Notes: generated by a model from the letters alone, not told the origin. Positions 15,641 to 63,340 are shown, numbered from the stretch's first letter. The stretch is DNA of 64,000 nucleotides from an uncultured Dehalococcoidia bacterium (GCA_958296105.1 OY282441.1:1813800-1877799), one strand, 5' to 3'. A program made the numbers and translations.

Positions 15641-15650
15641 TGGAGTACAG

Positions 15651-15816
15651 CTGCGCAGGCAGGATTCGCAGCCCCGCGATCCGCAACGGCGGCTTGCACA
15701 GGAAGCCGCGCTCTGAGAAAAGGGGTGTAATGGCTGCGCAGGTAGGATTCGCAGCCCCGCGATCCGCAACGACGGCTTGCACAGGAAGCCGCGCTCTGAG
15801 AAAAGGGGTGTGATGG
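15651..15816 (-). repeat. Two tandem 83-bp units, each ending in a copy of the tRNA-Asn 3' end (…GCGAATCCTACCTGCGCAGCCA)
   Basis: Units 15651-15733 and 15734-15816 differ at about 3 positions. The 83-bp phase continues into the true tRNA at 15817. Confidence 0.85.
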
Positions 15817-16440: not shown

Positions 16441-16541
16441 GCATTGCCTCCCGCTGATCGAGAAATTGACTGTGCGGGCGAGTGTCCGCGCCTGTAAAAG
16501 CGGTGAGAAGCCGCGCCCCCTCGTTTCATGGTAACTACGAT

Positions 16542-16710
16542 TGCGCCGCAGTGCGAGAGCAATGGCAACCGTAGTTGCGCCGCAGTGCGAGTGCAATGGC
16601 AACTTGAGCAACAGGGGGATATACCCGATGTGCTGTATGAACCGTAATTGCGCCGCAGTGCGAGTGCAATGGCAACCGTGACTGCGCCGCAGTGCGAGTG
16701 CAGTCGAGAG
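16542..16710. repeat. Four copies of TGCGCCGCAGTGCGAG(A/T)GCAATGGCAAC arranged as two 34-bp tandem pairs
   Basis: Copies start at 16542, 16576, 16649 and 16683 (the last is truncated). The pairs are separated by about 45 nt. Intergenic, between the VOC gene start and the FIST gene stop. Confidence 0.85.
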
Positions 16711-28706: not shown

Positions 28707-28788
28707 CTCACCCGATTTCCGCATCCGTTCGCTGCCATGCCGATTGTACCGCTTCGACAGAAATATTGCCCGCCGCCGGTTGTGGCAG

Positions 28789-29042
28789 ATCCCCTCTCCC
28801 ATAACATAAAGGGAGAGGGTTAGGGAGAACCGCCCCTCGCTGTGAGAGAGCCGCGTATCCCCTCTCTCTTGATGGGAGAGAGTTAGGTAGAGGGAGAACC
28901 GCCGCCCTTCGTTGAGAGAATGCTATGGATCCCCTCTCCCTGATGGGAGAGGGTTAGGGCTAGGGAGAACCGCCCTTCGCTGAGAGATCGCTTCGTATCC
29001 CCACTCCCTCGATGGGAGAGGGTTAGTGAGAGGGAGAACCCC
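28789..29042 (+). repeat. Four tandem ~68-72-bp units, each a REP-like hairpin (ATCCCCTCTCCC..GGGAGAGGG) plus TTAGG..AGGGAGAACCGCCC tail
   Basis: Units begin at 28789, 28857, 28929 and 28997. Intergenic, between the permease start and the MBL hydrolase stop. Confidence 0.85.
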
Positions 29043-29882
29043 CTAGACCGCCTGCCAGTACCTTCTTCCCTCGATGCGAACGAACCTGCCTATGTGCCGC
29101 TCCGGGTGGAAGTGGCCCGCTGCCACGATCATGTTCTCGCGCTCGGCGCGTTCCATGAACGCCCTGCGCGAGCGGCGCGTGTCCTCCGGGCTGGTGTCCA
29201 CGAACGCGCACCAGTCAGGCTCGTGTATCTGCACCGGGTTGTGGATCAGGTCTCCGATTATCGCCGCCCGCTCGCCGTCGGAGCTTATGAGGATCACCTG
29301 ATGGCCCGGCGTGTGTCCCGGCGTCTCCAGAGTCGTTATCTCGTCCGTCACGCTGTGGCCGTCCTCGATGAACTCGATCAGCCCCAGCTCGTCGAGCGGG
29401 ATGACGTTCTGCGAGATGTGCGGCGCGGTGGGCAGCACGTCGGGCTGCATGAAGTGTTCCCAGTCCTTGAGCGGGCCGAGATAGCGCGCGTTCGGGAAGA
29501 ACGGCTTGGGGGCGTCCGCCGAGCCGTCCACGTTCCAGCCCACGTGGTCCGGGTGCAGATGCGTATGGATCACGATGTCCACGTCGCCCGCTCCAACGCC
29601 CGCCTGTCCGAGCGCGCCCAGCAGGTTGCCAGTCCTGTTTTCCAAGTGCGCATGCGGCCCCGGCCCCATGCCCGTGTCCACCAGCACGGTCTTTCCCTGA
29701 GACCTCACGAAGAAGCTGCCATAGTACAGTTGGAGCAGACCATCTTCGAGAACCTCGTCCTCATACGGCGCCCACGCCTCGCGCGGCTGATCCCTGATGA
29801 ACACGGTCGGATCGCGCGGCGGCGGCACCATGTCCAGAACAGCGACTATCTCGACGTTTCCGACTCGGATCATGTCTGTCAT
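29043..29882 (-). CDS. MBL-fold metallo-hydrolase
   Basis: HTHLHPDHVGW (HxHxDH) and downstream His/Asp ligand motifs (TPGHTPGH, AAGHFH). Confidence 0.85.
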   Translation of the reverse strand: MTDMIRVGNVEIVAVLDMVPPPRDPTVFIRDQPREAWAPYEDEVLEDGLLQLYYGSFFVRSQGKTVLVDTGMGPGPHAHLENRTGNLLGALGQAGVGAGDVDIVIHTHLHPDHVGWNVDGSADAPKPFFPNARYLGPLKDWEHFMQPDVLPTAPHISQNVIPLDELGLIEFIEDGHSVTDEITTLETPGHTPGHQVILISSDGERAAIIGDLIHNPVQIHEPDWCAFVDTSPEDTRRSRRAFMERAERENMIVAAGHFHPERHIGRFVRIEGRRYWQAV

Positions 29883-34549: not shown

Positions 34550-35452
34550 TTGTCTGAGGAGCGATCTTCCGTGACCGACCAACCAACGCTGATCACGGGC
34601 GGCGCGGGCAGCGTGGGGCGACAGCTCGTCGAGATGTTCGCCGACGCGGGCCGCCCTGTCCGCATATTCGACCTGCCGATGATGGACTTCTCCGGTCTCG
34701 AAGATCGCCGCGCCATCGAGATCGTCAGGGGAGACATAACCGACGCGGATGGTGTTCGCGCCGCAGTCGAGGGCGTCGGAGCGATTCTGCACCTCGCCGC
34801 GCTGCTCCCCCCCAACAGCGAGCGAGACCGCGACCTGACGTTTCGCGTGAACGTGGACGGGACGAGGAACGTCATCGCCGCTATGGAGCGCGCCAATCCC
34901 CACGCGCGCCTGGTGTTCACCTCGTCCATAAGCACCTATGGCGACACCAGCGCGGACGAACCGCCCGTGCGCGCGAGCCACTCCCAGAGCGCCATAGACA
35001 TCTACGCCGACAGCAAGATCGAGGGCGAGCGGCTCATAGCCGAGTCTTCGCTGGAGAATGCGGTGGTGTTGCGAATCGCGGGGATAGCGGTTCCCGCCTT
35101 CCTTGCGCCGCCGGACCCGTGGCCGTTCATGGAAGGCCAGCGGGTCGAGATGGTGCATCGCGACGACGTGGCGGATGCGCTGTTCGCGGCTGCCTCCGCG
35201 CCCAACGCGGGCGGGAAGGTGTTCAACATCGCCGGAGGCCCCACGTGGCAGCTGTACGGACGCGACTACGCCAAGGACTTCTTCGACGTGATGGGCGCGC
35301 CCATCGAGCTGGCGACCTACCGAGACACCCCGGGCTGGATGGACTGGTACGATACCGATGAGTCCCAGCGCATACTCGCCTACCAGAACCGCAGCTACCA
35401 GCACTACATCGGCGAGATGCGGGCGATAATTCGGGCAATGATGGAGGAGTGA
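34550..35452 (+). CDS. NAD-dependent epimerase/dehydratase (extended SDR)
   Basis: LITGGAGSVGRQLV Rossmann motif. YADSK catalytic YxxxK. Confidence 0.8.
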   Translation: MSEERSSVTDQPTLITGGAGSVGRQLVEMFADAGRPVRIFDLPMMDFSGLEDRRAIEIVRGDITDADGVRAAVEGVGAILHLAALLPPNSERDRDLTFRVNVDGTRNVIAAMERANPHARLVFTSSISTYGDTSADEPPVRASHSQSAIDIYADSKIEGERLIAESSLENAVVLRIAGIAVPAFLAPPDPWPFMEGQRVEMVHRDDVADALFAAASAPNAGGKVFNIAGGPTWQLYGRDYAKDFFDVMGAPIELATYRDTPGWMDWYDTDESQRILAYQNRSYQHYIGEMRAIIRAMMEE

Positions 35453-35835
35453 GCGAGTCAGACATGACGACCCTAATAGAGAGCCACATGGATACGAGCC
35501 GCCTGTTCATTCGCCAAGCGGACGAAGAGTTCGCCAAAGGGGACGTTCTTCAGGCGTCCGAAAAGGCGTGGGGATCGGTAGTACACACCCTGAAAGCGAT
35601 AGCTCGCCAGCGAAACTGGCGGCATGGCGGACACTATCAGCTGGGGGTGATCGCCAACCGTCTGGCTGAAGAGACGAGACAGCCGGAGATACGAAACCTG
35701 TTCTCGGTAGCTGAAAGCCTGCACGCCAATTTCTACAACAACTGGAAGCCGGAAGGCGCGGTGCGTGGAGACATCGAAGACGTCAAGACGCTTCTGAACA
35801 TGCTGTGGGAGATACAGGGGGACGAGCTAGAGTAG
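35449..35835 (+). CDS. PaREP1-like / HEPN-like four-helix protein, copy a
   Basis: EEFAKGDVLQASEKAWGSVVHTLKAIARQRNWRHGGHYQL...AESLHANFY. Paralogous to 37016..37369. Resemblance to the archaeal PaREP1 family is from memory only. Confidence 0.45.
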   Translation: MSESDMTTLIESHMDTSRLFIRQADEEFAKGDVLQASEKAWGSVVHTLKAIARQRNWRHGGHYQLGVIANRLAEETRQPEIRNLFSVAESLHANFYNNWKPEGAVRGDIEDVKTLLNMLWEIQGDELE

Positions 35836-36073
35836 ATCGGATGACCACTAAGATACGCTTGCGAGACTCCGATGCCCACGCCGAGCTTGTCTGCGGCGAA
35901 GCGGTCATGGCTTGCGAGGACAACATGGAGTTCATGCTCTTGCGTCAAGGGCGAAATACCCCAGCCGTTCCCCTAGTGCTAATCGGAGTAGCCCCCTGAA
36001 CATATGAATCGTCCGCAATGTACAATTACACAGACCGCATCGGCAGCCTGCCCAATCCCACGGAGACCATCAG

Positions 36074-36946
36074 ATGACGACCCAAACCGAAATCCAAGTA
36101 CTCGACAGACGCGCCGCCGAGCGCAAGATGGATTCGCTGCGCTCCATCCTCCACGAGATGGGTACGGTGATCGTGGCATACTCAGGCGGAGTCGATAGCG
36201 CGTTCCTCGCCGCCGCAGCCAACGAAGCGCTCGGACACGAGGCGCTGGCAGTGACCGCCAAATCGCCGAGCCTTGCGCCGTCGGAGCTTCGGGAGGCGGT
36301 CGAGCTTGCGGATCGACTCGGTCTCAACCACCGCGTCATCGAGACCCACGAGGTCGAGCGAGAAGACTACGCCGCCAACAACCCCAACCGCTGCTTCTTC
36401 TGCAAGGACGAGCTGTACACCTACCTGTCGGCTTACGCCAAGCACGAGGGCTTCGCCCACATAGTCAACGGCACGAACACCGACGATCTCGGCGATTTCC
36501 GCCCCGGCCTGAACGCCGCCAAACAGTACGGCGTCCGCAGCCCGATGGTCGAGGCCGATCTGTCCAAGTCCGAAATCCGAACGCTGTCGCGCGATATGGA
36601 CCTGCCGACATGGGACAAGCCCGCGCAGGCGTGTCTGTCGTCTCGAATCCCATACGGAACGCCGGTCACCGTCGAGGCGCTGACGCGCATCGCGCAGGCG
36701 GAGGAGTTCCTGCACGACCTCGGCATCCGCCAGCTGCGCGTCCGCCACCACGACACGATTGCGCGTATCGAGGTGGAGCCTGCGGACTTCTTCACCCTTG
36801 CCCAAGACCCCGCGCGCGAGAAGGTCACGGACTTCTTCCGCTCCATCGGATACTCCTACGTCACCTTGGATCTGGAGGGCTTCCGCTCCGGCAGCCTGAA
36901 CGAGGTGCTGGCTGGCTTGAGGAAGAAGCGGGAATCCAAGCAGTAA
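36074..36946 (+). CDS. larE: LarE-family PP-loop ATP-dependent sulfur transferase
   Basis: PP-loop VAYSGGVDSAF. NPNRCFFCKDELY. SSRIPYGTPVT...RVRHH. TIGR00268-like. Confidence 0.8.
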   Translation: MTTQTEIQVLDRRAAERKMDSLRSILHEMGTVIVAYSGGVDSAFLAAAANEALGHEALAVTAKSPSLAPSELREAVELADRLGLNHRVIETHEVEREDYAANNPNRCFFCKDELYTYLSAYAKHEGFAHIVNGTNTDDLGDFRPGLNAAKQYGVRSPMVEADLSKSEIRTLSRDMDLPTWDKPAQACLSSRIPYGTPVTVEALTRIAQAEEFLHDLGIRQLRVRHHDTIARIEVEPADFFTLAQDPAREKVTDFFRSIGYSYVTLDLEGFRSGSLNEVLAGLRKKRESKQ

Positions 36947-37015
36947 TCGGCGCAGCCCAGCTGCTTTTGAGCTATACATCGGTCTTGAAGTCGATCGACC
37001 CCGAGGGCAAGAGAT

Positions 37016-37369
37016 ATGCTGACACAAGAGCATGTCCACACATCACAGGAGTTCCTCGCTGCGGCGGATCGTGAGTTCGCTGCTGGAGACCTCGTGCAGG
37101 GATCGGAGAAGCTGTGGGGCGCTGCGGCTCACGTGGCAATAGCAGCCGCTCAACAGCGTGGCTGGCCACACCGGAGTCATCGGTCTCTTAAGAACGTCGT
37201 CGAGCGCATGTCCAGAGAGCTGGATGATCCCTTGCTGGCGTCTGATTTTGCCGTAGCGGAGAAGTTCCATCGCAATTTCTACCACGATGATATGGAAGAC
37301 GACGAACGCGATGCAGACCGACCGAAGGTGGAGCGCTTCGTATCTCGTATGCTCGAAATATCCAGCTAA
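37016..37369 (+). CDS. PaREP1-like / HEPN-like four-helix protein, copy b
   Basis: REFAAGDLVQGSEKLWGAAAHVAIAAAQQRGWPHRSHRSL...AEKFHRNFY aligns by eye with the 35449 protein. Confidence 0.45.
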   Translation: MLTQEHVHTSQEFLAAADREFAAGDLVQGSEKLWGAAAHVAIAAAQQRGWPHRSHRSLKNVVERMSRELDDPLLASDFAVAEKFHRNFYHDDMEDDERDADRPKVERFVSRMLEISS

Positions 37370-37379
37370 GGATATTCCC

Positions 37380-37487
37380 ATGCGCACCCTAGACGCCATA
37401 GCTCATATCCTCAAGTTGGAGGGCTTCCGCTCCGGCAGCCTGAACGAAGTGCTTGCGGGCTTGCGAAAGAAGCGGGCGGGGGAGTAG
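37380..37487 (+). repeat. Chimeric junction 1: copy of the ThDP-gene 5' end (to ...LKLEG) fused to a copy of the larE 3' end (FRSGSLNEVLAGLRKKR...); forms a 35-codon mini-ORF
   Basis: 37380-37424 is nearly identical to 39621-39665 (2 mismatches). 37417-37475 is nearly identical to 36872-36933. The crossover lies at the shared T(T/C)GGAGGGC. Confidence 0.85.
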
Positions 37488-37589
37488 AGAGGGACTATCA
37501 GAGCGATCAAGGACGGGATACGCTCGATACTCGATCCCTCGACCATCGAATTCATAAAGCTGCGCGTCAACGCAGTCGTCCGCTTAGTC

Positions 37590-37844
37590 GTGTGCGCCGC
37601 AATACTCGCTGTTGGCTGGATAGCCCTAATGGCAATCGGAATCGTCCTTGATTTTGCGCTAGAATATACACTAGAGGCAGTCAACGCGCCCGACTTTATC
37701 AGAAACCTCTTATCTCCAATGCCGTGGATAGCGCTGGTTGTGTTGGGAGTCGCCATAACGATAACAAGCATTGGCGACGCAGTAAATCTTGCGAAGGTCG
37801 GTCTCAAAAATTCCTACGAACCCAAAAATGGAAATCAGCGATGA
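37590..37844 (+). CDS. Small membrane protein A1 (start uncertain, possibly decaying)
   Basis: Two TM-like segments. Homology to B1 (PSTIE(F/S)I(K/R)) extends upstream of GTG 37590 into a stretch with no ATG. The stop overlaps the A2 start (ATGA). Confidence 0.35.
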   Translation: MCAAILAVGWIALMAIGIVLDFALEYTLEAVNAPDFIRNLLSPMPWIALVVLGVAITITSIGDAVNLAKVGLKNSYEPKNGNQR

Positions 37845-38554
37845 AAGCCAAACTTTCCGAATACATATCCTTCAGAGATGTTCCATTCGCGCTTGTCTGC
37901 GCGATGGCATGGTCGGTCGTCCTGTGGATTGCAGAATATCCTGTGGGCGAACGCATAGGCGTAGTCGTAATCGCATACGTCGCGCTGTGGACGTCGCGCT
38001 TGGCAATCGTCTCGGCGACGCTTTTCCTGTCAAAACATCTACACAAACTGACTATGGAAACTGCGGAACGTTTGGGCGTCGAGATTCCCGAAGAACCGTC
38101 GTCTGCCGTCCCGACCATAACCCGCGTTTTGATCGTCGTTTTCCTATCGTCGGCAATGCTCCTATCCATGATGGGGTTGTCCCTAATGGTTACGTTTCCC
38201 GTGGCAGCCGTTGTGGGATTGTCGCCGCTCTCCGCCGGATTCGGAATCGCAGGGTTGACTATGTTCGCGTTGGGAGCAATCGAATTGTCGCTGCTCTTCG
38301 GCGTTCCATACATCATGGTCGCCAGAACAGAATCGGTCGTTAACAAGAAATTGGAAGCCGGGATCCGGGCAACATCCAGCATATTGGGCGCGCGTCCGAT
38401 GAGAGCGCCGGGATTCGCGCTGAGTCCGAACACCGTCGTCAGGATGCGGCGCGAACGGCAACTACTACAGATGATACTGCAAGCTGGGATTCGCGCTGAG
38501 TCCGAACACCGTCGTCAGCCGATAACCGAACCGAAATCGGAGGCTCCCCCATGA
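37841..38554 (+). CDS. Membrane protein A2 (237 aa), paralogue of B2
   Basis: YPVGERIGVVVIAYVALWTSRLAI versus B2 YPVDQWVGIVVIAYVSLCLSRVLI. Four or more hydrophobic segments. ATG 37841. Confidence 0.55.
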   Translation: MKAKLSEYISFRDVPFALVCAMAWSVVLWIAEYPVGERIGVVVIAYVALWTSRLAIVSATLFLSKHLHKLTMETAERLGVEIPEEPSSAVPTITRVLIVVFLSSAMLLSMMGLSLMVTFPVAAVVGLSPLSAGFGIAGLTMFALGAIELSLLFGVPYIMVARTESVVNKKLEAGIRATSSILGARPMRAPGFALSPNTVVRMRRERQLLQMILQAGIRAESEHRRQPITEPKSEAPP

Positions 38555-38640
38555 AAGTACTCGACGCCATTACCCATATCCTCAAGTTGGAGGGCTTCCG
38601 CTCCGGCAGCCTGAACGACGGGCTTGCGGAAGAAGCGGGA
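38551..38640 (+). repeat. Chimeric junction 2 (ThDP 5' copy + larE 3' copy, more degraded, with indels)
   Basis: atgaaagtactcgacgccattacccatatcctcaagttggagggcttccgctccggcagcctgaacga... Its ATG overlaps the A2 stop (ATGA). Confidence 0.8.
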
Positions 38641-38699
38641 TGCGGGCGCGTAGATCGTTCTCGCGCCGCGAGACAATATTCGACCGTGTGAGGGAGGCC

Positions 38700-39041
38700 A
38701 TGTTCAGACTCTACCCATCCACAATTGAATCCATAAGGTTCTACTTCAACAGCGCAGTGCTGGGAATCGCGTTTGCCGCAGCGTCCTCAGTCATGGCGGC
38801 AACCAGCATACCCCTGAAATGGGCGCTAGACTATCTATTGACAGTGTTCGAGGTTTCGGAGCGTGTTCAGGCGATCATGTCCCAGCTCGCCATAGGGTTT
38901 CCAATCGTATTTGCGCTTGGGATTTTCTTCAGCGGGATCATGGACATGTTTCATCTGATAAAATTCAGAATTACACACCCAATCAATATGGAAAGAGATT
39001 CCACCGATGTACGTCAGATCGACAGGGAAGATAATAGCTAG
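38700..39041 (+). CDS. Small membrane protein B1 (113 aa)
   Basis: ATG 38700 is preceded by GAGGGAGG. Two TM-like segments. The N-terminus aligns with the A1 upstream region. Confidence 0.45.
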   Translation: MFRLYPSTIESIRFYFNSAVLGIAFAAASSVMAATSIPLKWALDYLLTVFEVSERVQAIMSQLAIGFPIVFALGIFFSGIMDMFHLIKFRITHPINMERDSTDVRQIDREDNS

Positions 39042-39591
39042 AGAGCTGTTGCTGTCCTTTGTCTATACGACAATCTGGTTCGTCATCCTGTTCGCCGTCT
39101 CCTATCCGGTGGATCAGTGGGTTGGCATCGTTGTCATCGCATACGTCTCACTGTGCCTGTCGAGGGTGTTGATTGCCAATCTCGCCGTATTCCTGCTAAC
39201 CAGACTGCATGAGTATGGATCACAGGTAGCGGCGCGCATGGGAATAGAGCGTTCAGACCCCACAGACAATCGAGCATCTCGCGCAGCAGCCTCGCTGTTT
39301 CTCTTCGGTGTGCTGGCAGCGATCTTCGGTTTGACGCTCACCATCACAGGCGCGTGGGCGTCCTATGCGGGACTATGGCCTCTGGGCCGAGTATTCGACC
39401 TTGCTGGGTGGGCGATGCTGTCAGTGGGCTCGTGCATGACAGCGCTGTTCTTCCTCGGTTCTTACCTTCTGTTCAAGGGGGGCGAGGTTCTGTCGGACAA
39501 GCTGAGCAGCCGTGTCAACGCTATCGAACAGTCAAAGGCGCTGGTGGGGAGTTGGAGCGCTAACCCAGCTGCGTTGTCCGCCCCCAGATAG
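39007..39591 (+). CDS. Membrane protein B2 (194 aa), paralogue of A2
   Basis: See A2. Hydrophobic segments throughout. Confidence 0.55.
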   Translation: MYVRSTGKIIARELLLSFVYTTIWFVILFAVSYPVDQWVGIVVIAYVSLCLSRVLIANLAVFLLTRLHEYGSQVAARMGIERSDPTDNRASRAAASLFLFGVLAAIFGLTLTITGAWASYAGLWPLGRVFDLAGWAMLSVGSCMTALFFLGSYLLFKGGEVLSDKLSSRVNAIEQSKALVGSWSANPAALSAPR

Positions 39592-39620
39592 TCCCCATCT
39601 CACACCCCTAGGAGACCCCC

Positions 39621-41267
39621 ATGCGCACCCTAGACGCCATAGCTCGCATACTCAAGTTGGAGGGCATCGAGTACCTCAGCGCCTTCCCGACCACATCGCT
39701 AATCGAGTCGGCGGCGGACATTGGCATCAGGCCCATCATATGCAGGCAGGAGCGAGTCGGGGTCGGCATTGCGGACGGCTACTCGCGCGTCACCAACGGC
39801 AGGCCCGCAGGCGTCTTTGCCATGCAGTACGGGCCTGGAGCCGAAAACGCATACGCGGGCGTAGCCACCGCGTTCTCGGACGCCGTGCCGATGCTGCTTC
39901 TACCGCTCGGACATCCGAGCGGGCGGGATGGCGTGTATCCACACTTCAGCTCCGTCCGAAGTTACGAGTCCGTCACCAAGAACGTCGAGCGTCTTCATTC
40001 TCCGTCCTTGGTCGCAGACGCCATGCGCCGCGCCTTCGCGCTGCTGAAGATGGGACGTCCCGGCCCCGTGATGGTCGAGATACCGGCCGACGTGGGCGAG
40101 ATGGAAGTCCCCGATGGCGTACTCGAAAGCTACATGCCAGTGAAGGCGGCCGTCGCCGGAGCCAACGTCGCCGACGTGGACGAGGCGGCGGCGCTCCTGC
40201 TGGCGGCAGACAGCCCCATCGTGTACGCCGGACAGGGCGTCATGCACGCGGAGGCCACCGATGATCTCGTCGAGCTTGCCGAGCTGCTCCATATTCCGGT
40301 CACCACCAGCATGGCGGGCAAGAGCGGCTTCCCGGAGAAGCACCCGCTCTCTCTCGGCTCCAGCTCGGGGGTGATGAACGGCGCGGCGTACCGCTTCATA
40401 GAGAATGCGGACGTGGTGTTCGCCGTCGGATCCAGCCTCACCAAGCACGGAATGACGCTCACCATCCCGCCGGACAAGACGCTCATACAGGCGACCAACG
40501 ACCCCATCGACATCTCCAAGAGCTACCGCGTAGAGTACCCGCTGCTGGGCGACGCCAAGCTGATCATCCGCCAGATGATCGAGGCGTGCCGCGACCGTCT
40601 TGGCGGCGCGCTCAGAGACGGCGCGACCGCTGAGGAGATCGCCGCCGCGCGCCGCGCGTGGCTGAGCGGGTGGATGCGCAAGCTGGCGTCCGACGAGACG
40701 CCGATCAACCCGTATCGCGTGATGTGGGAGTTCATGCAGAACGTGGACCCGAATCACGCCATAGTCACCCACGACTCGGGCAGTCCGCGCGATCAGCTGA
40801 TGCCCTTCTATCGAGCGGGCGGACCCCACACGTATCTGGGCTGGGGCAAGTCGCACGGACTCGGCACCGGACTCGGTCTGAACATCGGCGCGAAGCTGGC
40901 AGATCCGCAGAAGTTCGTGGTCAACTTCATGGGAGACGCCGCGTTCGGCATGACCGGCATGGACTTCGAGACGGCGGCGCGCTCCGCTATCCCCATCCTG
41001 ACCATCGTGCTGAACAACTCCTCCATGGCTATCGAGACTTCGCACATGGCGCGCTCCCACGAGCTTTACCGCACACGCGAGCTCGGCGGGAGCTACGCGG
41101 AGCTTGGGCGCGCTATGGGCGGGTGGGCAGAGAAGATCGAAGACCCTTCCGACGTCGCCCCCGCCATACTGAGGGCGAAGGCGGCGACCGAAGACGGGCG
41201 CGCCGCACTCCTGGAGTTCGTCACCAGCGAGGAGGGCGAGTTCAGCCACCGCAGGCCGTTCGGGTAG
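39621..41267 (+). CDS. Thiamine-diphosphate-dependent enzyme (acetolactate-synthase / sulfoacetaldehyde-acetyltransferase-like)
   Basis: Three-domain layout. N-terminal LKLEGIEYLSAFPT. ThDP-binding GDAAFGMTGMDFETAARSAIPILTIVLNN. Confidence 0.85.
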   Translation: MRTLDAIARILKLEGIEYLSAFPTTSLIESAADIGIRPIICRQERVGVGIADGYSRVTNGRPAGVFAMQYGPGAENAYAGVATAFSDAVPMLLLPLGHPSGRDGVYPHFSSVRSYESVTKNVERLHSPSLVADAMRRAFALLKMGRPGPVMVEIPADVGEMEVPDGVLESYMPVKAAVAGANVADVDEAAALLLAADSPIVYAGQGVMHAEATDDLVELAELLHIPVTTSMAGKSGFPEKHPLSLGSSSGVMNGAAYRFIENADVVFAVGSSLTKHGMTLTIPPDKTLIQATNDPIDISKSYRVEYPLLGDAKLIIRQMIEACRDRLGGALRDGATAEEIAAARRAWLSGWMRKLASDETPINPYRVMWEFMQNVDPNHAIVTHDSGSPRDQLMPFYRAGGPHTYLGWGKSHGLGTGLGLNIGAKLADPQKFVVNFMGDAAFGMTGMDFETAARSAIPILTIVLNNSSMAIETSHMARSHELYRTRELGGSYAELGRAMGGWAEKIEDPSDVAPAILRAKAATEDGRAALLEFVTSEEGEFSHRRPFG

Positions 41268-49737: not shown

Positions 49738-50784
49738 CTACCCGGACAGATCCTCGAACACCGTCCGCCACTCCGAGGCGTCCCCGTCTCCGAAGCCGGC
49801 GCGATAGACTATCACGCCGTCCGCGCCAAAGGCGACCTTGGTGGACTGGTAAGTGACCTTGAAGTTGGCGAGAGTCCCCTTGCCCGGCTGGACTATCGGC
49901 CAAGGATACCCTTCTCGCTCGCCGAACGCCTCTAGGCTCTGGAATGTGTCCGTAGGGTCTACGTTCACCGCGTAGAAGTCCACCTTGTCCGCGTACTCCG
50001 GGTAGATGTTTTTCAGGCTCCGCAACTCGGAGCGGCACGTCCCTCAAAACGTGGCGAAGAAGAACAGGAACGCCGGACGTTCACTCTCCAACAGGGTGGC
50101 AGTAGTCATAACAGCGCCGTCGGCTGAGGCGAGAGAGAATTCGGGTATCCGCTCGCCTACGCCGCTGCCAATTTTCGCAGCCGGCGGAGGCGCGGTTGGC
50201 ACAGGCGTAGGAGTTGGAGGAACGGCGGTCGCGGTAGGCGCGGGCGTCGCTGTGTTGGTAGGCGTAGGAGGAATGGCGGTCGAGGTAGGCGCGGGAGTTG
50301 GAGGAACGGCGGTCGAGGTAGGCGCGCTGGTAGGAATCGGCGCAGGAGTGGCAGTGTCGGCAGGCGCGGGCGTTGGAGGCGCAGCTGTGGCGGTAGGTGC
50401 GGTCGATGCGGCGGGAGCCGTCGTAGGCGCGGCTGTGACGGTAGGCGCGCTGGTCGGGATTGGCGCAGGAGTGGCAGTGTCGGCAGGCGCGGGCGTTGGA
50501 GGCGTGGCGGTAGGCGCGGTGGATGCGGGAGCCGTTGTAGGCTCGGCAGTGGCGGTAGGCGCGCTGGTCGGGATAGGCGCAGGCGCGGCTGTGCTGGTCG
50601 GAATCGGCGCGGGCGTGTTGGCAGGCGCGGGAGGCGGCGTGCTGGTGGGCGCGGATTTCGAGGCGAGCGCGGCAGTCGCCACTGCCGCCGGCGCGGACGG
50701 CTCCGCTTCCGGCGCAGTCGTTCCGCACGCCACGGCGACGAGGGCAATTGTCGATATGATTACTGTAACGATGAGCCTAGTCAC
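49738..50784 (-). CDS. TlpA/ResA-like thioredoxin-fold lipoprotein, selenoprotein candidate (U-G-T-C; TGA at 50044-50046) with a long Pro/Ala/Thr linker
   Basis: ORFs 50044..50784 and 49738..50025 are in the same frame. ...ERPAFLFFFATF-U-GTC-RSELRSLKNIYPEYADKVDFYAVNVD aligns with the WCxxC region of TlpA/ResA. Signal peptide plus Cys (LVAVAC). Confidence 0.65.
50321..50680. repeat. Tandem ~114-123-bp repeats encoding the Pro/Ala/Thr-rich linker
   Basis: Units start at 50321, 50444 and 50558 (ggcgcgctggt(a/c)gg(a/g)at...). The protein repeat reads APIPTSAPT.TA.PTTAPA.STAPTAT..PPTPAPADTATP. Confidence 0.75.
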
Positions 50785-57515: not shown

Positions 57516-57545
57516 TGTACGAACTCCGATTCACATGTTGGTTCA

Positions 57546-57653
57546 ACTGTCATGGTAACAGCGCAGGGCTGACAGTGGGAATGGCGGCGCGAGGATGCCG
57601 CCCATCCGCTCGATTCGACTGTCATGGTAACAGCGCAGGGCTGACAGTGGGAA
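57546..57653. repeat. Two copies of a 36-bp element ACTGTCATGGTAACAGCGCAGGGCTGACAGTGGGAA (each an internal 7-bp-stem hairpin) flanking a GC hairpin
   Basis: Copies at 57546-57581 and 57618-57653. The central GGCGGC-N8-GCCGCC hairpin is at about 57583-57602. Intergenic. Confidence 0.8.
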
Positions 57654-62360: not shown

Positions 62361-62974
62361 GCGAGCTGCGAGAGCTTCTTCACGATCTGACCGAGTGGAC
62401 GCTGGCGCTCGCCGACAGCGATTGGGCAGTAGCGTTGCTGGCGCTGGTCGCCTTCAGCGAGTCGGTGGTGTTCCCCATACCCCCGGACCCGTTGCTGATG
62501 GCGGTGGGAATCGCCAACCCGGGGCTGGCGATATGGGTGGCGGCGTTGGTGACAGTCGCCTCGGTGTGCGGCGCATACGTGGGCCATGCTCTGGGCAGGC
62601 GTGTTGGAAGACCGTTGCTGTACAGACTCGTGTCGAGCGAAAAGGTCGACCGCGCCGAGGCCTTGTTCGCCAAGTACGGCGCTTGGGCGATACTGGTGGC
62701 AGCGTTCACCCCCATTCCGTATAAGGTATTCACCATCTTGGCGGGAATCCTGAATCTGCCGCTCAGGACGTTCCTTCTAGCCTCGCTTGCAGGCAGAGGC
62801 GCGCGATTCGTCACCATCGGCGTTCTCATCTACATCTTCGGCGAGTCGATCCGAGACTTCATCGAGGGCAACTTCGAGCTGTTGACCATAGCCGCCGGCG
62901 TGGTCGTGATCGCGCTGTTGGTGGGTTATCTGGTATATAGACGAACGCAGACGTCGCGGATATCTGCCACCTGA
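62357..62974 (+). CDS. DedA/YqaA-family (SNARE-associated) membrane protein
   Basis: FSESVVFPIPPDPLLMAVG. TPIPYKVFTILAGIL. ATGA overlap with panE. Confidence 0.8.
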   Translation: MSELRELLHDLTEWTLALADSDWAVALLALVAFSESVVFPIPPDPLLMAVGIANPGLAIWVAALVTVASVCGAYVGHALGRRVGRPLLYRLVSSEKVDRAEALFAKYGAWAILVAAFTPIPYKVFTILAGILNLPLRTFLLASLAGRGARFVTIGVLIYIFGESIRDFIEGNFELLTIAAGVVVIALLVGYLVYRRTQTSRISAT

Positions 62975-63340
62975 GTTGTGGTAATCGAATGTACGAGCCA
63001 GAGCCAAGACTTCATCGAGGTCAACTTTCGAGCTGCTGACCATAGCCGTCGGCGTCGGCGTGGTCGTATTCGCGCTGTTGGCGGGTTATCTGGCGTATAG
63101 ACGAACGCGGACGTCTGCCACCTGAGTTGTGGTAATCGGATGTACGAACCAGAGCCAAGACTTCATCGAGGTCAGCTTCGAGCCGTTGATCATAGCCGTC
63201 AGCGTGTTCGTGTTCGCGCTGTTGGTGGGTTATCTGGCGTATAGACGAACGCGGATGTCGCGGCTGCCTGCCACCTGAGCCATGTGAAGCGGATGGATGA
63301 ACCAGAACCAAGTATAGACGAACTCGGATGTCTGCTACAG
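62855..63340 (+). repeat. Tandem ~152-bp triplication (plus a truncated fourth copy) of the DedA gene 3' end and its trailer
   Basis: Units start at 62855, 63008 and 63159. Each encodes DFIE(G/V).FE.L.IA....V.ALL.GYL.YRRT...AT followed by a stop. Confidence 0.85.

What the first reader, a model, noticed from the sequence alone, without database searches (positions are those of the whole stretch)
36870..39665. A chimeric junction (ThDP-gene 5' end fused to larE 3' end) occurs twice and bounds three cassette slots
The first 45 nt of the ThDP-enzyme gene (atgcgcaccctagacgccatagctcgcatactcaagttggagggc, 39621-39665) recur at 37380 and, more diverged, at 38551. In each recurrence they are fused at T(T/C)GGAGGGC to a copy of the last ~60 nt of larE (cttccgctccggcagcctgaacgaggtgctggc...aagaagcggg, original at 36879-36933).

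The crossover sits where both parent genes encode L(D/K)LEG.

Resulting layout: larE | slot 1 (PaREP1/HEPN-like gene) | junction 1 | slot 2 (membrane pair A1-A2) | junction 2 | slot 3 (membrane pair B1-B2) | ThDP gene.

This is the footprint of repeated tandem duplication through an 8-9-nt microhomology, followed by divergence or replacement of slot content. Alternatively, the junction could be a reused recombination site. Junction 1 keeps an intact 35-codon mini-ORF (MRTLDAIAHILKLEGFRSGSLNEVLAGLRKKRAGE) with the ThDP gene's translation-initiation context.
Basis: seen in the sequence. Interest (0 to 1): 0.7.

Follow-up and report, generated by a model that had tools for sequence, protein, structure and literature searches.

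The report
Gene-end linkers separating swappable gene cassettes
Between two ordinary enzyme genes of an uncultured Dehalococcoidia bacterium lies a strain-variable stack of small gene cassettes, separated by short linkers made of the start of one enzyme gene fused to the end of the other. Related genomes have made such linkers independently at least four times.

Summary
A fusion of the first 45 nt of the ThDP-enzyme gene to the last ~60 nt of larE occurs twice (J1 at 37380, J2 at 38551) and bounds three slots.

- **Slot contents are not diverged duplicates.** Membrane pairs A and B share only 29-32% amino-acid identity, against ~90% nucleotide identity for the linkers. In one relative (L081) A and B lie side by side with no linker.
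- **Slot number varies.** Related genomes carry 0 to 3 cassettes. The closest relative (L181, ~99% identical) has slots 1 and 2 only.
- **There is no fixed recombination site.** Other lineages carry the same kind of linker with four other breakpoints.
- **The 8-9-nt microhomology is secondary.** L181 and 21 other relatives have a different codon 13 (AAA in L181, never TTG) in the real ThDP gene. The window's ThDP start was overwritten from a linker.

Best reading: this is a polymorphic cassette array with no recombinase gene nearby. Recurrent head-to-tail illegitimate joins made the linkers. The linkers then act as portable homology for gain, loss and shuffling of old cassettes. Four independent linker types keep an open frame from the ThDP start codon to the larE stop, which suggests translational coupling to the next cassette. 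Interest is moderate.

The parts
36074..36946 (+). larE gene (ATP-dependent sacrificial sulfur transferase), the left anchor of the array
   Evidence: TIGR00268 at 340 bits against a cut-off of 150. ORF listed.
36874..36933 (+). Parental larE 3' tail segment that is copied into both linkers
   Evidence: The first 30 nt are identical in all three copies. Alignment.
37016..37369 (+). Slot 1 cassette: a PaREP1 (HEPN-T clade) gene
   Evidence: PF05942 at E = 1.4e-14. Its closest homologues sit elsewhere, between leuC and leuD. HEPN-T assignment from PMC3710099.
37370..37487 (+). Linker J1: ThDP ribosome-binding region, then ThDP nt 1-45 (37380-37424), fused to the larE tail (37418-37487). It forms the 35-codon ORF 37380-37487, which ends at a larE-type TAG.
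   Evidence: The tail end and downstream sequence are orthologous to the native larE-A1 boundary of L081. The same linker is present in L181.
37488..37844 (+). Slot 2, gene A1 (small membrane protein). The start codon is uncertain: ATA where L083 has ATG. The first canonical start is GTG at 37590.
37841..38554 (+). Slot 2, gene A2 (predicted four-helix membrane protein). Its start overlaps the A1 stop (ATGA). Its C-terminus is extended by an insertion.
38407..38518 (+). 36-nt direct repeat (38407-38442 and 38483-38518) around a unique 40-nt filler. This is a 76-nt insertion absent from L181, read as the scar of an illegitimate join between two A2 3' ends.
   Evidence: All other family members have the short C-terminus.
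38519..38691 (+). Linker J2: the boundary from the A2 end to the ThDP ribosome-binding region, then ThDP nt 1-45 (38551-38595), fused to a larE tail with an 8-nt deletion. The ORF 38551-38691 is out of the larE frame.
38700..39041 (+). Slot 3, gene B1 (small membrane protein), with its own GAGGGAGG Shine-Dalgarno sequence and ATG at 38700
39007..39591 (+). Slot 3, gene B2 (predicted four-helix membrane protein)
39607..39665 (+). Parental ThDP ribosome-binding region plus the first 45 nt. In this genome it has been partly overwritten by linker sequence (TTG at codon 13).
   Evidence: 5 of 45 differences from L181, against 6 of 835 in the rest of the gene. Alignment of 21 relatives.
39621..41267 (+). 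ThDP-requiring enzyme gene, the right anchor of the array
   Evidence: NF004807 at 718 bits against a cut-off of 607. Pfam TPP_enzyme_N, M and C domains.
35449..35835 (+). Second PaREP1 paralogue upstream of larE (37% amino-acid identity to the slot-1 copy). It is part of a variable islet on the other side of larE.
   Evidence: Compare the gene tables.

Best explanation
The larE|ThDP interval is a polymorphic cassette array with no recombinase gene nearby, found in one clade of Dehalococcoidia.

**What it is made of.** The cassettes are old and divergent. They include several types of two-gene membrane-protein pairs (A, A', B, C), a PaREP1/HEPN gene, and a transmembrane coiled-coil gene. They stand head to tail between two conserved enzyme genes. 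Where two cassettes are stacked, they are usually separated by a chimeric linker: the ThDP ribosome-binding site plus its first codons, fused to the last codons of larE.

**How it most likely works.**
1. *Linker formation (shown).* Linkers arise by recurrent illegitimate head-to-tail joins between the ThDP 5' end and the larE 3' end. The join is of the tandem-duplication type. Whether it forms between sister chromosomes, or by one-sided-homology integration or circularisation of DNA from co-occurring strains, is not resolved.
2. *Shuffling (inferred, with specific scars).* Once a linker exists, its two halves are portable homology. Homologous recombination among linkers, the real larE tail and the real ThDP start adds, removes and reorders cassettes. 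The window's slot 3 differs from its nearest relative in this way.
3. *Gene conversion (shown).* Conversion runs both ways between linker copies and the real ThDP 5' end. It keeps the linkers similar to their parents and created the apparent 8-9-nt 'microhomology'.
4. *Linker function (hypothesis, about 0.35-0.4).* The linker ORF is kept in frame because translation started at the ThDP site must end at the larE-type stop. That stop abuts or overlaps the start of the next cassette gene, so this recreates the native translational context.
For: **Slot number and content vary among relatives.**
- None: L014, L016.
- Transmembrane coiled-coil gene: L001, L010, L011.
- B only: L079, L080.
- A+B with no linker: L081.
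- PaREP1|J|A: L181.
- Two slots: L183, L184, L186.
- Three slots: L083, L084, L182, L185.

**Five breakpoint types, all of the same topology.**
- 45|60: window and L181.
- 6|~100: L083 and L182-L185.
- 90|36 and 72|34: L084.
- ~165|~170: L186.
- Sources.

**Cassettes are far older than the linkers.** A1/B1 share 29% and A2/B2 32% amino-acid identity. The interiors of units 2 and 3 give no significant nucleotide match beyond a 32-nt stretch. The linkers are about 80-91% identical.

**Each cassette type carries its own variant of the larE end.** That variant is found as the native larE end in other genomes.
- The window's J1 tail plus A matches the native larE-A boundary of L081.
- The A'-type end GCGAATGTTTAG is native in L084 and L183, and sits in linkers in L083, L084, L185 and L186.

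**Gene conversion is visible against L181.**
- Baseline difference is 0.7-1.4%. The first 45 nt of ThDP differ at 5 of 45, and the J1 region at 9 of 130.
- The variant states are shared among paralogous copies.

**Other support.**
- The window has a 76-nt scar in A2 that L181 lacks.
- No recombinase gene appears in the ±6-8 kb gene tables, apart from a DDE transposase about 5 kb downstream in L083 only.
- Four independent linker types (T1, T2, T3, T5) are in frame, and the three internal deletions of T5 are all multiples of 3.
- Every linker in front of an A' cassette, whose ATG overlaps the linker's stop codon, is in frame.
- A2-family proteins are mosaics.
- The same kind of join (leuD 5' joined to leuC 3') lies between two PaREP1 copies in L086.
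Against: - **The joining mechanism is not shown.** Intrachromosomal duplication followed by cassette replacement would give the same end state.
- **Predicted single-cassette haplotypes were not found.** Neither larE|PaREP1|ThDP nor larE|A|ThDP turned up. The closest PaREP1 homologues lie at other loci.
- **The direction of the window/L181 difference (gain or loss of slot 3) rests on parsimony only.**
- **The in-frame statistic is small.** Four of four gives about 1/81. Microhomology that happens to be in the same frame in both genes (GCG GAC in T5) could contribute.
- **Coupling is not general.** In the window, A1 lacks a canonical start and lies about 30 nt after the J1 stop. B and C cassettes have their own Shine-Dalgarno sequence and start codon.
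- **Cassette function is unknown.** There were no Pfam, NCBIfam or PADLOC hits, the structure model was of low confidence, and Foldseek found no match.
Confidence: 0.6

Rival explanations
1. In-situ tandem duplication through the TGGAGGGC microhomology, followed by divergence of the copies.
For: - The topology is head to tail.
- J1 and J2 share one breakpoint and shared variants.
- Microhomology-mediated tandem duplication is a well-described process (papers listed).
Against: - Pair A and pair B share 29-32% amino-acid identity, against linkers about 80-91% identical in nucleotides.
- A and B are adjacent without any linker in L081.
- Slot 1 holds an unrelated PaREP1 gene.
- TTG is absent from the real ThDP gene of L181 and of 21 other relatives, so the 8-9-nt match is secondary.
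Confidence: 0.08
2. In-situ amplification of a whole [larE tail-A-B-ThDP 5'] unit, followed by complementary deletions: one copy lost B, the other lost A, and slot 1 was replaced by PaREP1.
For: - L081 shows an A-B ancestor arrangement.
- The L186 linker shows that internal deletions do trim these regions.
- Redundant copies are expected to be lost.
Against: - It needs at least four tidy deletions plus a replacement.
- It does not explain why each cassette type has its own larE-end variant that is native elsewhere.
- It does not explain the 76-nt join scar in A2.
- It does not explain different cassette combinations behind one linker type in co-occurring strains.
Confidence: 0.15
3. The junction is a dedicated site-specific recombination site, like an integron attC or a dif site, used repeatedly to insert cassettes.
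For: - The same core recurs at every slot boundary in this window.
- The arrangement looks like an array of cassettes without promoters of their own.
Against: - Five different breakpoints occur in related genomes.
- No integrase or recombinase gene is called within ±6-8 kb in any of the arrays.
- The linkers contain no inverted repeat.
- The linker sequence is fully accounted for by the two parent genes.
Confidence: 0.03
4. Assembly artefact: a chimeric contig or a mis-expanded repeat.
For: All the sequences come from metagenome assemblies, and no reads are available here.
Against: - J1 is found in an independent assembly from another sample (L181).
- Linked arrays occur in at least eight further contigs from several samples, including three contigs of 4.3-4.6 Mb whose names carry coverage figures of 22-32x.
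- The repeated pieces are only about 100 nt long and their flanks are unique.
Confidence: 0.02

Closest known systems
Join points of bacterial tandem duplications and amplifications (illegitimate or microhomology-mediated tandem duplication)
   Same: The novel joint links the downstream end of a segment to its upstream end, here the ThDP 5' end to the larE 3' end. Copies within one genome share the breakpoint, as expected when later copy-number change runs through homologous recombination. Background papers are listed (for example bioRxiv 10.64898/2026.02.28.708716 and PMC8639346).
   Different: The units between the joints are not copies of each other (29-32% amino-acid identity, or unrelated genes). 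Joints formed at least four times at the same gene pair in related lineages. They persist and undergo gene conversion. Several of them show 0-1 nt of microhomology.
Orphan toxin/immunity modules downstream of cdiA and rhs genes
   Same: These are arrays of divergent cassettes, each preceded by a fragment of the conserved upstream gene. The fragments are proposed to allow recombination that reshuffles modules, possibly after tandem duplication (PMC3150448).
   Different: The upstream gene here is a metabolic enzyme (larE), not a polymorphic toxin. The linkers also carry the start of the downstream gene. No toxin or immunity function is known for the cassettes.
Integron cassette arrays
   Same: Cassettes without evident promoters of their own are stacked at one site behind a fixed gene and separated by recurring short elements. 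Their number varies between strains.
   Different: There is no integrase, no attC-like structure and no fixed crossover point. The linkers are plain pieces of the neighbouring genes.
Homology-facilitated illegitimate recombination and additive flexible genomic islands (from my own knowledge of the literature, not checked here)
   Same: Foreign DNA is added next to a homologous anchor, with an illegitimate joint at the other end. Strain-variable islets lie between conserved genes.
   Different: Uptake and integration were not shown here. The islet is unusually small (0-3 kb) and lies inside what looks like one operon.

Membership tests
Tandem-duplication join point | Head-to-tail order: the downstream-gene 5' end is joined to the upstream-gene 3' end | tested here: met
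   All five linker types have this order.
Tandem-duplication join point | The units on either side of the joint are copies of one another | tested here: not met
   A and B share 29-32% amino-acid identity, and slot 1 holds an unrelated gene. L081 has A-B with no joint.
Tandem-duplication join point | Microhomology at the breakpoint | tested here: inconclusive
   T5 has GCGGA(C), 5-6 nt. The T1 match of 8-9 nt is secondary. T2-T4 show 0-1 nt when read against present-day parent sequences.
Integron-like or site-specific cassette system | A recombinase gene next to the array | tested here: not met
   The gene tables with Pfam hits for ±6-8 kb in L079, L083, L084 and L182-L185 show no integrase or recombinase gene next to any array. 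The only mobile-element gene is a DDE transposase about 5 kb downstream in L083.
Integron-like or site-specific cassette system | A fixed crossover core shared by all insertions | tested here: not met
   Five different breakpoints.
Integron-like or site-specific cassette system | An attC-like imperfect inverted repeat in the linker | tested here: not met
   No inverted repeat lies within the linkers.
CDI/Rhs-type orphan module array | Each module is preceded by a fragment of the conserved upstream gene | tested here: met
   A larE tail precedes every stacked cassette.
CDI/Rhs-type orphan module array | The upstream gene is a polymorphic toxin and the cassettes encode toxin tips or immunity proteins | tested here: not met
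   The upstream gene is LarE (TIGR00268). The cassettes have no hits in Pfam, NCBIfam or PADLOC. An immunity function cannot be tested here.
Translationally coupled leader ORF | The ORF's stop overlaps or abuts the start of the downstream gene | tested here: met
   The A' start ATG overlaps the linker stop (AATGTTTAG) in L083, L084, L185 and L186. In the window, the J1 stop lies about 30 nt before the A1 region, which lacks a canonical start.
Translationally coupled leader ORF | The reading frame is preserved from the start codon to that stop | tested here: met
   T1, T2, T3 and T5 are in frame, and the three internal deletions of T5 are multiples of 3. The two out-of-frame linkers precede B cassettes (ATG in the window, GTG in the degraded L084 copy, 9-45 nt after the stop).
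Translationally coupled leader ORF | The ORF is translated, and downstream expression depends on it | not testable with these tools
   This needs Ribo-seq or reporter assays.
PaREP1/HEPN-T family (slot-1 gene) | Match to PF05942 above the gathering score | tested here: met
   54.4 bits against a cut-off of 24.4. Clade assignment from PMC3710099.

The most novel reading that the evidence does not exclude
The chimeric linkers are not mere scars but the working parts of a cassette system that needs no recombinase. Pieces of the two flanking housekeeping genes would serve two roles at once. They would be portable homology that lets a population gain, lose and reorder fast-evolving membrane-protein cassettes by ordinary homologous recombination. 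They would also be ready-made expression adaptors: the ThDP ribosome-binding site and start codon, read in frame to the larE stop, would translationally couple each newly stacked cassette.
Probability: 0.3. Interest if true: 0.7.

Novelty: new variant of a known kind. Interest (0 to 1): 0.55.

Why it matters
This locus shows, at single-nucleotide resolution and across about a dozen related genomes, how a tiny flexible islet inside an operon is built and reshuffled without any mobile-element machinery.
- Illegitimate head-to-tail joins recur at the same gene pair.
- The resulting gene-end linkers then act as substrates for recombination and undergo concerted evolution with their parent genes.
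- The linkers appear to be kept translatable.

If the coupling role is real, the locus gives a simple rule for how stacked cassettes stay expressed.

It also carries a practical warning. Apparent microhomology at a duplication joint can be produced afterwards by gene conversion, so it should not be read as the cause of the duplication without an outgroup.

The cassettes themselves are a rare membrane-protein pair seen here only in Dehalococcoidia-type genomes. They are unstudied, and their strain-level turnover suggests a role in some conflict or in the cell surface.

Tried and rejected
- **Python analysis.** The script machine was lost. All later comparisons used the alignment and search tools, plus counting differences by eye from the alignment outputs.
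- **Exact look-up of the ThDP protein.** Nothing on record.
- **Search for multiple larE-tail copies in the genome-scan loci.** No locus had more than one copy.
- **Metagenome scan for the larE-tail motif.** It returned 93 stretches, and each of the 80 listed had a single copy. No further arrays exist in that collection.
- **Search for a larE|PaREP1|ThDP haplotype.** The closest PaREP1 homologues lie between leuC and leuD instead.
- **Function of the membrane pairs.**
  - Pfam, NCBIfam and PADLOC gave nothing meaningful.
  - The AlphaFold model of B2 has mean pLDDT 67 and pTM 0.42, and shows four long helices.
  - Foldseek against PDB found nothing below E = 0.3 and no TM-score above 0.35.
- **Promoter and terminator scan of 35400-39800.** Counts were no higher than in shuffles, and no signal lies in the linkers.
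- **Origin of the 40-nt filler in A2.** It is unique in the window and absent from all fetched loci.
- **Eroded linker in L081.** By eye, part of the A2-B1 spacer resembles the region upstream of the ThDP gene, but the alignment gives no convincing match. I treat L081 as having no linker.
- **Stop-codon read-through as the source of A1.** J1 and A1 are in the same frame in the window, but L081 has a different frame relation, so I rejected it as a general mechanism.

Full report
**1. The observation**

The sequence is as described.
- The core GGAGGGC lies at 36874 (inside larE), 37418, 38589 and 39659 (inside the ThDP gene).
- The 30 nt that follow it in larE recur without mismatch at 37418 and 38589. 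Shuffles expect 0.00 copies.
- The ThDP-derived 33-mer recurs at 37392, 38563 and 39633 with at most 3 mismatches. Shuffles expect 0.00.
- J1 (37380-37487) differs from the ThDP start at 3 of 45 nt and is 91.5% identical to the larE tail.
- J2 (38551-~38660) is more diverged in its ThDP part and carries an 8-nt deletion in its larE part.
- J1 and J2 share variants that neither parent gene has (CATATCCTC, GCGGGCTTGCG). They therefore descend from one junction.

- larE matches TIGR00268 at 340 bits, and the ThDP enzyme matches NF004807 at 718 bits.
- Two PaREP1 genes are present. PaREP1 belongs to the HEPN-T clade (PMC3710099).
- The two membrane pairs are homologous: A1/B1 at 29% and A2/B2 at 32% amino-acid identity.

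**2. The first discrepancy**

The three units bounded by the core are 544, 1171 and 1070 nt long.
- Between units 2 and 3, only the linker ends and one 32-nt stretch give a nucleotide match. The interiors are related only at the protein level.
- Non-functional gene fragments that are about 90% identical cannot be the same age as coding regions at about 30% amino-acid identity.
- So either the cassettes are older than the linkers, or the linkers are kept alike by some process.

**3. Related genomes**

A scan of species-representative genomes with the ThDP protein found 21 close Dehalococcoidia relatives at 82-89% identity.
- In L014 and L016, larE is followed by the ThDP gene after about 40 nt.
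- In L001, L010 and L011, a transmembrane coiled-coil ORF of 105-123 codons fills the gap.
- In L002 and L005, the two genes are not neighbours.

The membrane pairs are a rare family: 12 proteins for B2 and 38 for A2. Their contexts are decisive.

| Locus | Arrangement between larE and ThDP |
|---|---|
| L079, L080 | B |
| L081 | A, B (no linker between them) |
| L181 | PaREP1, J1, A |
| L183 | A', linker, C |
| L184 | A, linker, C-type first gene plus a 194-residue second gene (the length of B2) |
| L186 | A, linker, A' |
| L083, L185 | A, linker, A', linker, B |
| L182 | A, linker, A', linker, then a pair with a C-type first gene and a 194-residue second gene |
| L084 | A', linker, A', linker, degraded B |

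- L181 is about 99% identical to the window.
- Slot number therefore varies from 0 to 3.
- Three large contigs of 4.3-4.6 Mb from one sample carry 2, 2 and 3 slots.

**4. The linkers elsewhere**

Every linker has the same topology: ThDP ribosome-binding site and first codons, then the larE tail. The breakpoints differ.

| Type | ThDP nt / larE nt | Found in |
|---|---|---|
| T1 | 45 / 60 | window, L181 |
| T2 | 6 / ~100 | L083, L182-L185 |
| T3 | 90 / 36 | L084 |
| T4 | 72 / 34 | L084 |
| T5 | ~165 / ~170 | L186 |

- T4 may be T3 with a 17-nt deletion.
- T5 was later trimmed by internal deletions of 27, 21 and 45 nt.
- The joints therefore formed independently at least four times. There is no fixed site.
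- Apart from a DDE transposase about 5 kb downstream in L083, no recombinase gene is called within 6-8 kb of any array.
- Within one genome the linkers share a breakpoint while their last 15-20 nt differ according to the cassette that follows.
- Each cassette type thus has its own version of the larE end. That version occurs as the native end of the real larE in other genomes.
  - The window's J1 tail and the sequence after it are orthologous to the native larE-A1 boundary of L081.
  - The A'-type end GCGAATGTTTAG is native in L084 and L183, and sits in linkers in L083, L084, L185 and L186.
- This pattern is expected if each cassette once stood directly behind a complete larE and was later stacked. 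Once one linker exists, homologous exchange between a linker's tail and a real larE tail gives this outcome.

**5. The microhomology is secondary**

- In 21 relatives, ThDP codon 13 is AAG, AAA, ATA, AGA or ATG, never TTG.
- In L181 the real gene reads AAGAAAGAGGGC, while its J1 reads AAGTTGGAAGGC.
- Against L181, the window differs at 6 of 835 positions in ThDP nt 46-880, but at 5 of the first 45.
- It differs at 12 of about 870 positions across larE-PaREP1, but at 9 of about 130 in the J1 region.
- The variant states are shared among paralogous copies:
  - GCCATAGCT in the window's J1 and its real ThDP;
  - GCCATTACC in L181's J1 and the window's J2;
  - TTG in all T1 linkers and in the window's ThDP.
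- This is gene conversion between linker copies and the real gene start, in both directions.
- The T1 joint lies to the left of codon 13. There the parent genes share at most one base.
- T2-T4 also show 0-1 nt of overlap. T5 uses GCGGA(C).

**6. How the window differs from L181**

- L181 lacks J2 and the B pair. Its A2 has the C-terminus typical of the family (...SPNTVVSR*), which the alignment of 25 members confirms.
- The window's A2 carries a 76-nt insertion: a unique 40-nt filler plus a second copy of the preceding 36 nt. It shifts the frame and extends the ORF into J2's ATG.
- The boundary from the A2 end to the ThDP ribosome-binding site (CAGCCGATAACCGAAyC...GGAG...CCCCATG) is the same in three places: before L181's real ThDP, before the window's J2, and before the L083 and L084 linkers.
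- The most economical reading is that two haplotypes were joined inside the A2 3' end. The window's three-slot state would then be derived. This is inference.

**7. The linker ORFs**

- T1, T2, T3 and T5 all read from the ThDP ATG, in the larE frame, to the larE-type stop.
- All three internal deletions of T5 are multiples of three.
- Chance alone would give four in-frame joints about once in 81.
- The two out-of-frame linkers are the window's J2 and L084's T4. Both precede B cassettes.
  - In the window, B1 has its own Shine-Dalgarno sequence and an ATG 9 nt after the J2 stop.
  - In L084, the degraded B1 starts at a GTG about 45 nt after the linker stop.
- Every linker before an A' cassette is in frame, and there the ATG overlaps the linker stop (AATGTTTAG). 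This holds for three independent types.
- I therefore propose that the linker ORF recreates the native translational context of the cassette's first gene.
- This is a hypothesis with about 0.35-0.4 confidence.
- In the window itself A1 has no canonical start, so the case is weaker there.

**8. Generality**

- The closest homologues of the slot-1 PaREP1 gene sit as tandem pairs between leuC and leuD in other genomes.
- In L086 the spacer between the two copies contains the leuD upstream region and its first ~40 nt, joined to a diverged copy of the leuC 3' end.
- That is the same kind of joint at an unrelated locus.

**9. Comparison with known systems**

- The joints are tandem-duplication join points in topology, but the units are not copies of one another.
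- The array resembles the orphan-module arrays of cdiA and rhs loci. There too, fragments of a conserved upstream gene precede each module and are thought to mediate reshuffling (PMC3150448). The anchor genes here are metabolic, and no toxin is involved.
- It resembles an integron only in outline. The integrase, attC and fixed-core features were all tested and not met.

**10. Verdict**

- The locus is a polymorphic cassette array with no recombinase gene nearby. It was built by recurrent illegitimate head-to-tail joins and is maintained by homologous exchange and gene conversion.
- It is a new variant of known processes rather than a new kind of system.
- Its value lies in the unusually clear comparative record and in the possible expression role of the linkers.

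Noticed in passing
L086 4496-5440 (also L087, L085): Two PaREP1 genes stand in tandem between leuC and leuD. In L086 the spacer holds the leuD upstream region and its first ~40 nt, joined to a diverged leuC 3' end. This is the same kind of chimeric joint at a second locus.
   Followed up: partly
window 37488-37600; L081 5520-5620; L083 3516-3560: A1 has no ATG, GTG or TTG ahead of its N-terminal region, which is conserved at the amino-acid level. The window and L081 read ATA...ATA where L083 reads ATG...ATG. Between the window and L081, 6 changes are synonymous and 5 are not. This suggests a non-canonical start or re-initiation.
   Followed up: partly
window 35937-35999: The last 20 codons of a BglII-like restriction endonuclease survive as a remnant (75% identity to the C-terminus of the L001 enzyme). 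Upstream of larE, relatives carry varying sets of DUF2283, PaREP1, N6/N4 methyltransferase, restriction endonuclease and RNase T genes. This is a second variable islet.
   Followed up: partly
proteins P0135, P0139, P0140 (alignment A6): A2-family proteins are mosaics. P0139 has the N-terminal half of P0135 and the C-terminal half of the P0140 type. This points to recombination inside the cassettes.
   Followed up: no
L001 7621-7974; L010 7572-7943; L011 7660-7977: In these relatives a different small gene occupies the larE|ThDP slot: one transmembrane helix followed by a long coiled coil.
   Followed up: no
L084 5800-6480; L001 6745-7624; L181 ~7010: Some array or anchor genes look broken. In L084, B1 has an internal deletion and B2 is truncated. 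In L001, larE is split into two ORFs. In L181, A2 has a frameshift. These may be decay or sequencing errors.
   Followed up: no
window 16540-16702 and 15650-15815: Four copies of a ~30-nt unit with internal dyad symmetry (TTGCGCCGCAGTGCGAG(A/T)GCAATGGCAAC). Nearby lies a perfect-register 83-nt tandem duplicate at 96% identity.
   Followed up: no
window 62848-63331; 50192-50625; 49958/51095; 28788-29043; 57542-57653: Further short tandem or dispersed direct repeats, with units of 40-160 nt at 80-98% identity. Their nature was not examined.
   Followed up: no
L085 8060-10354: A related genome encodes a full LigD (ligase, primase-polymerase and N-terminal domains). End joining is therefore available in this clade, which may bear on joints that show 0-1 nt of microhomology.
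   Followed up: no
window 35997-36026: The only promoter-like match on the + strand (TGAACA, 18 nt, TACAAT) lies just upstream of larE. The count of such matches is no higher than in shuffles.
   Followed up: no
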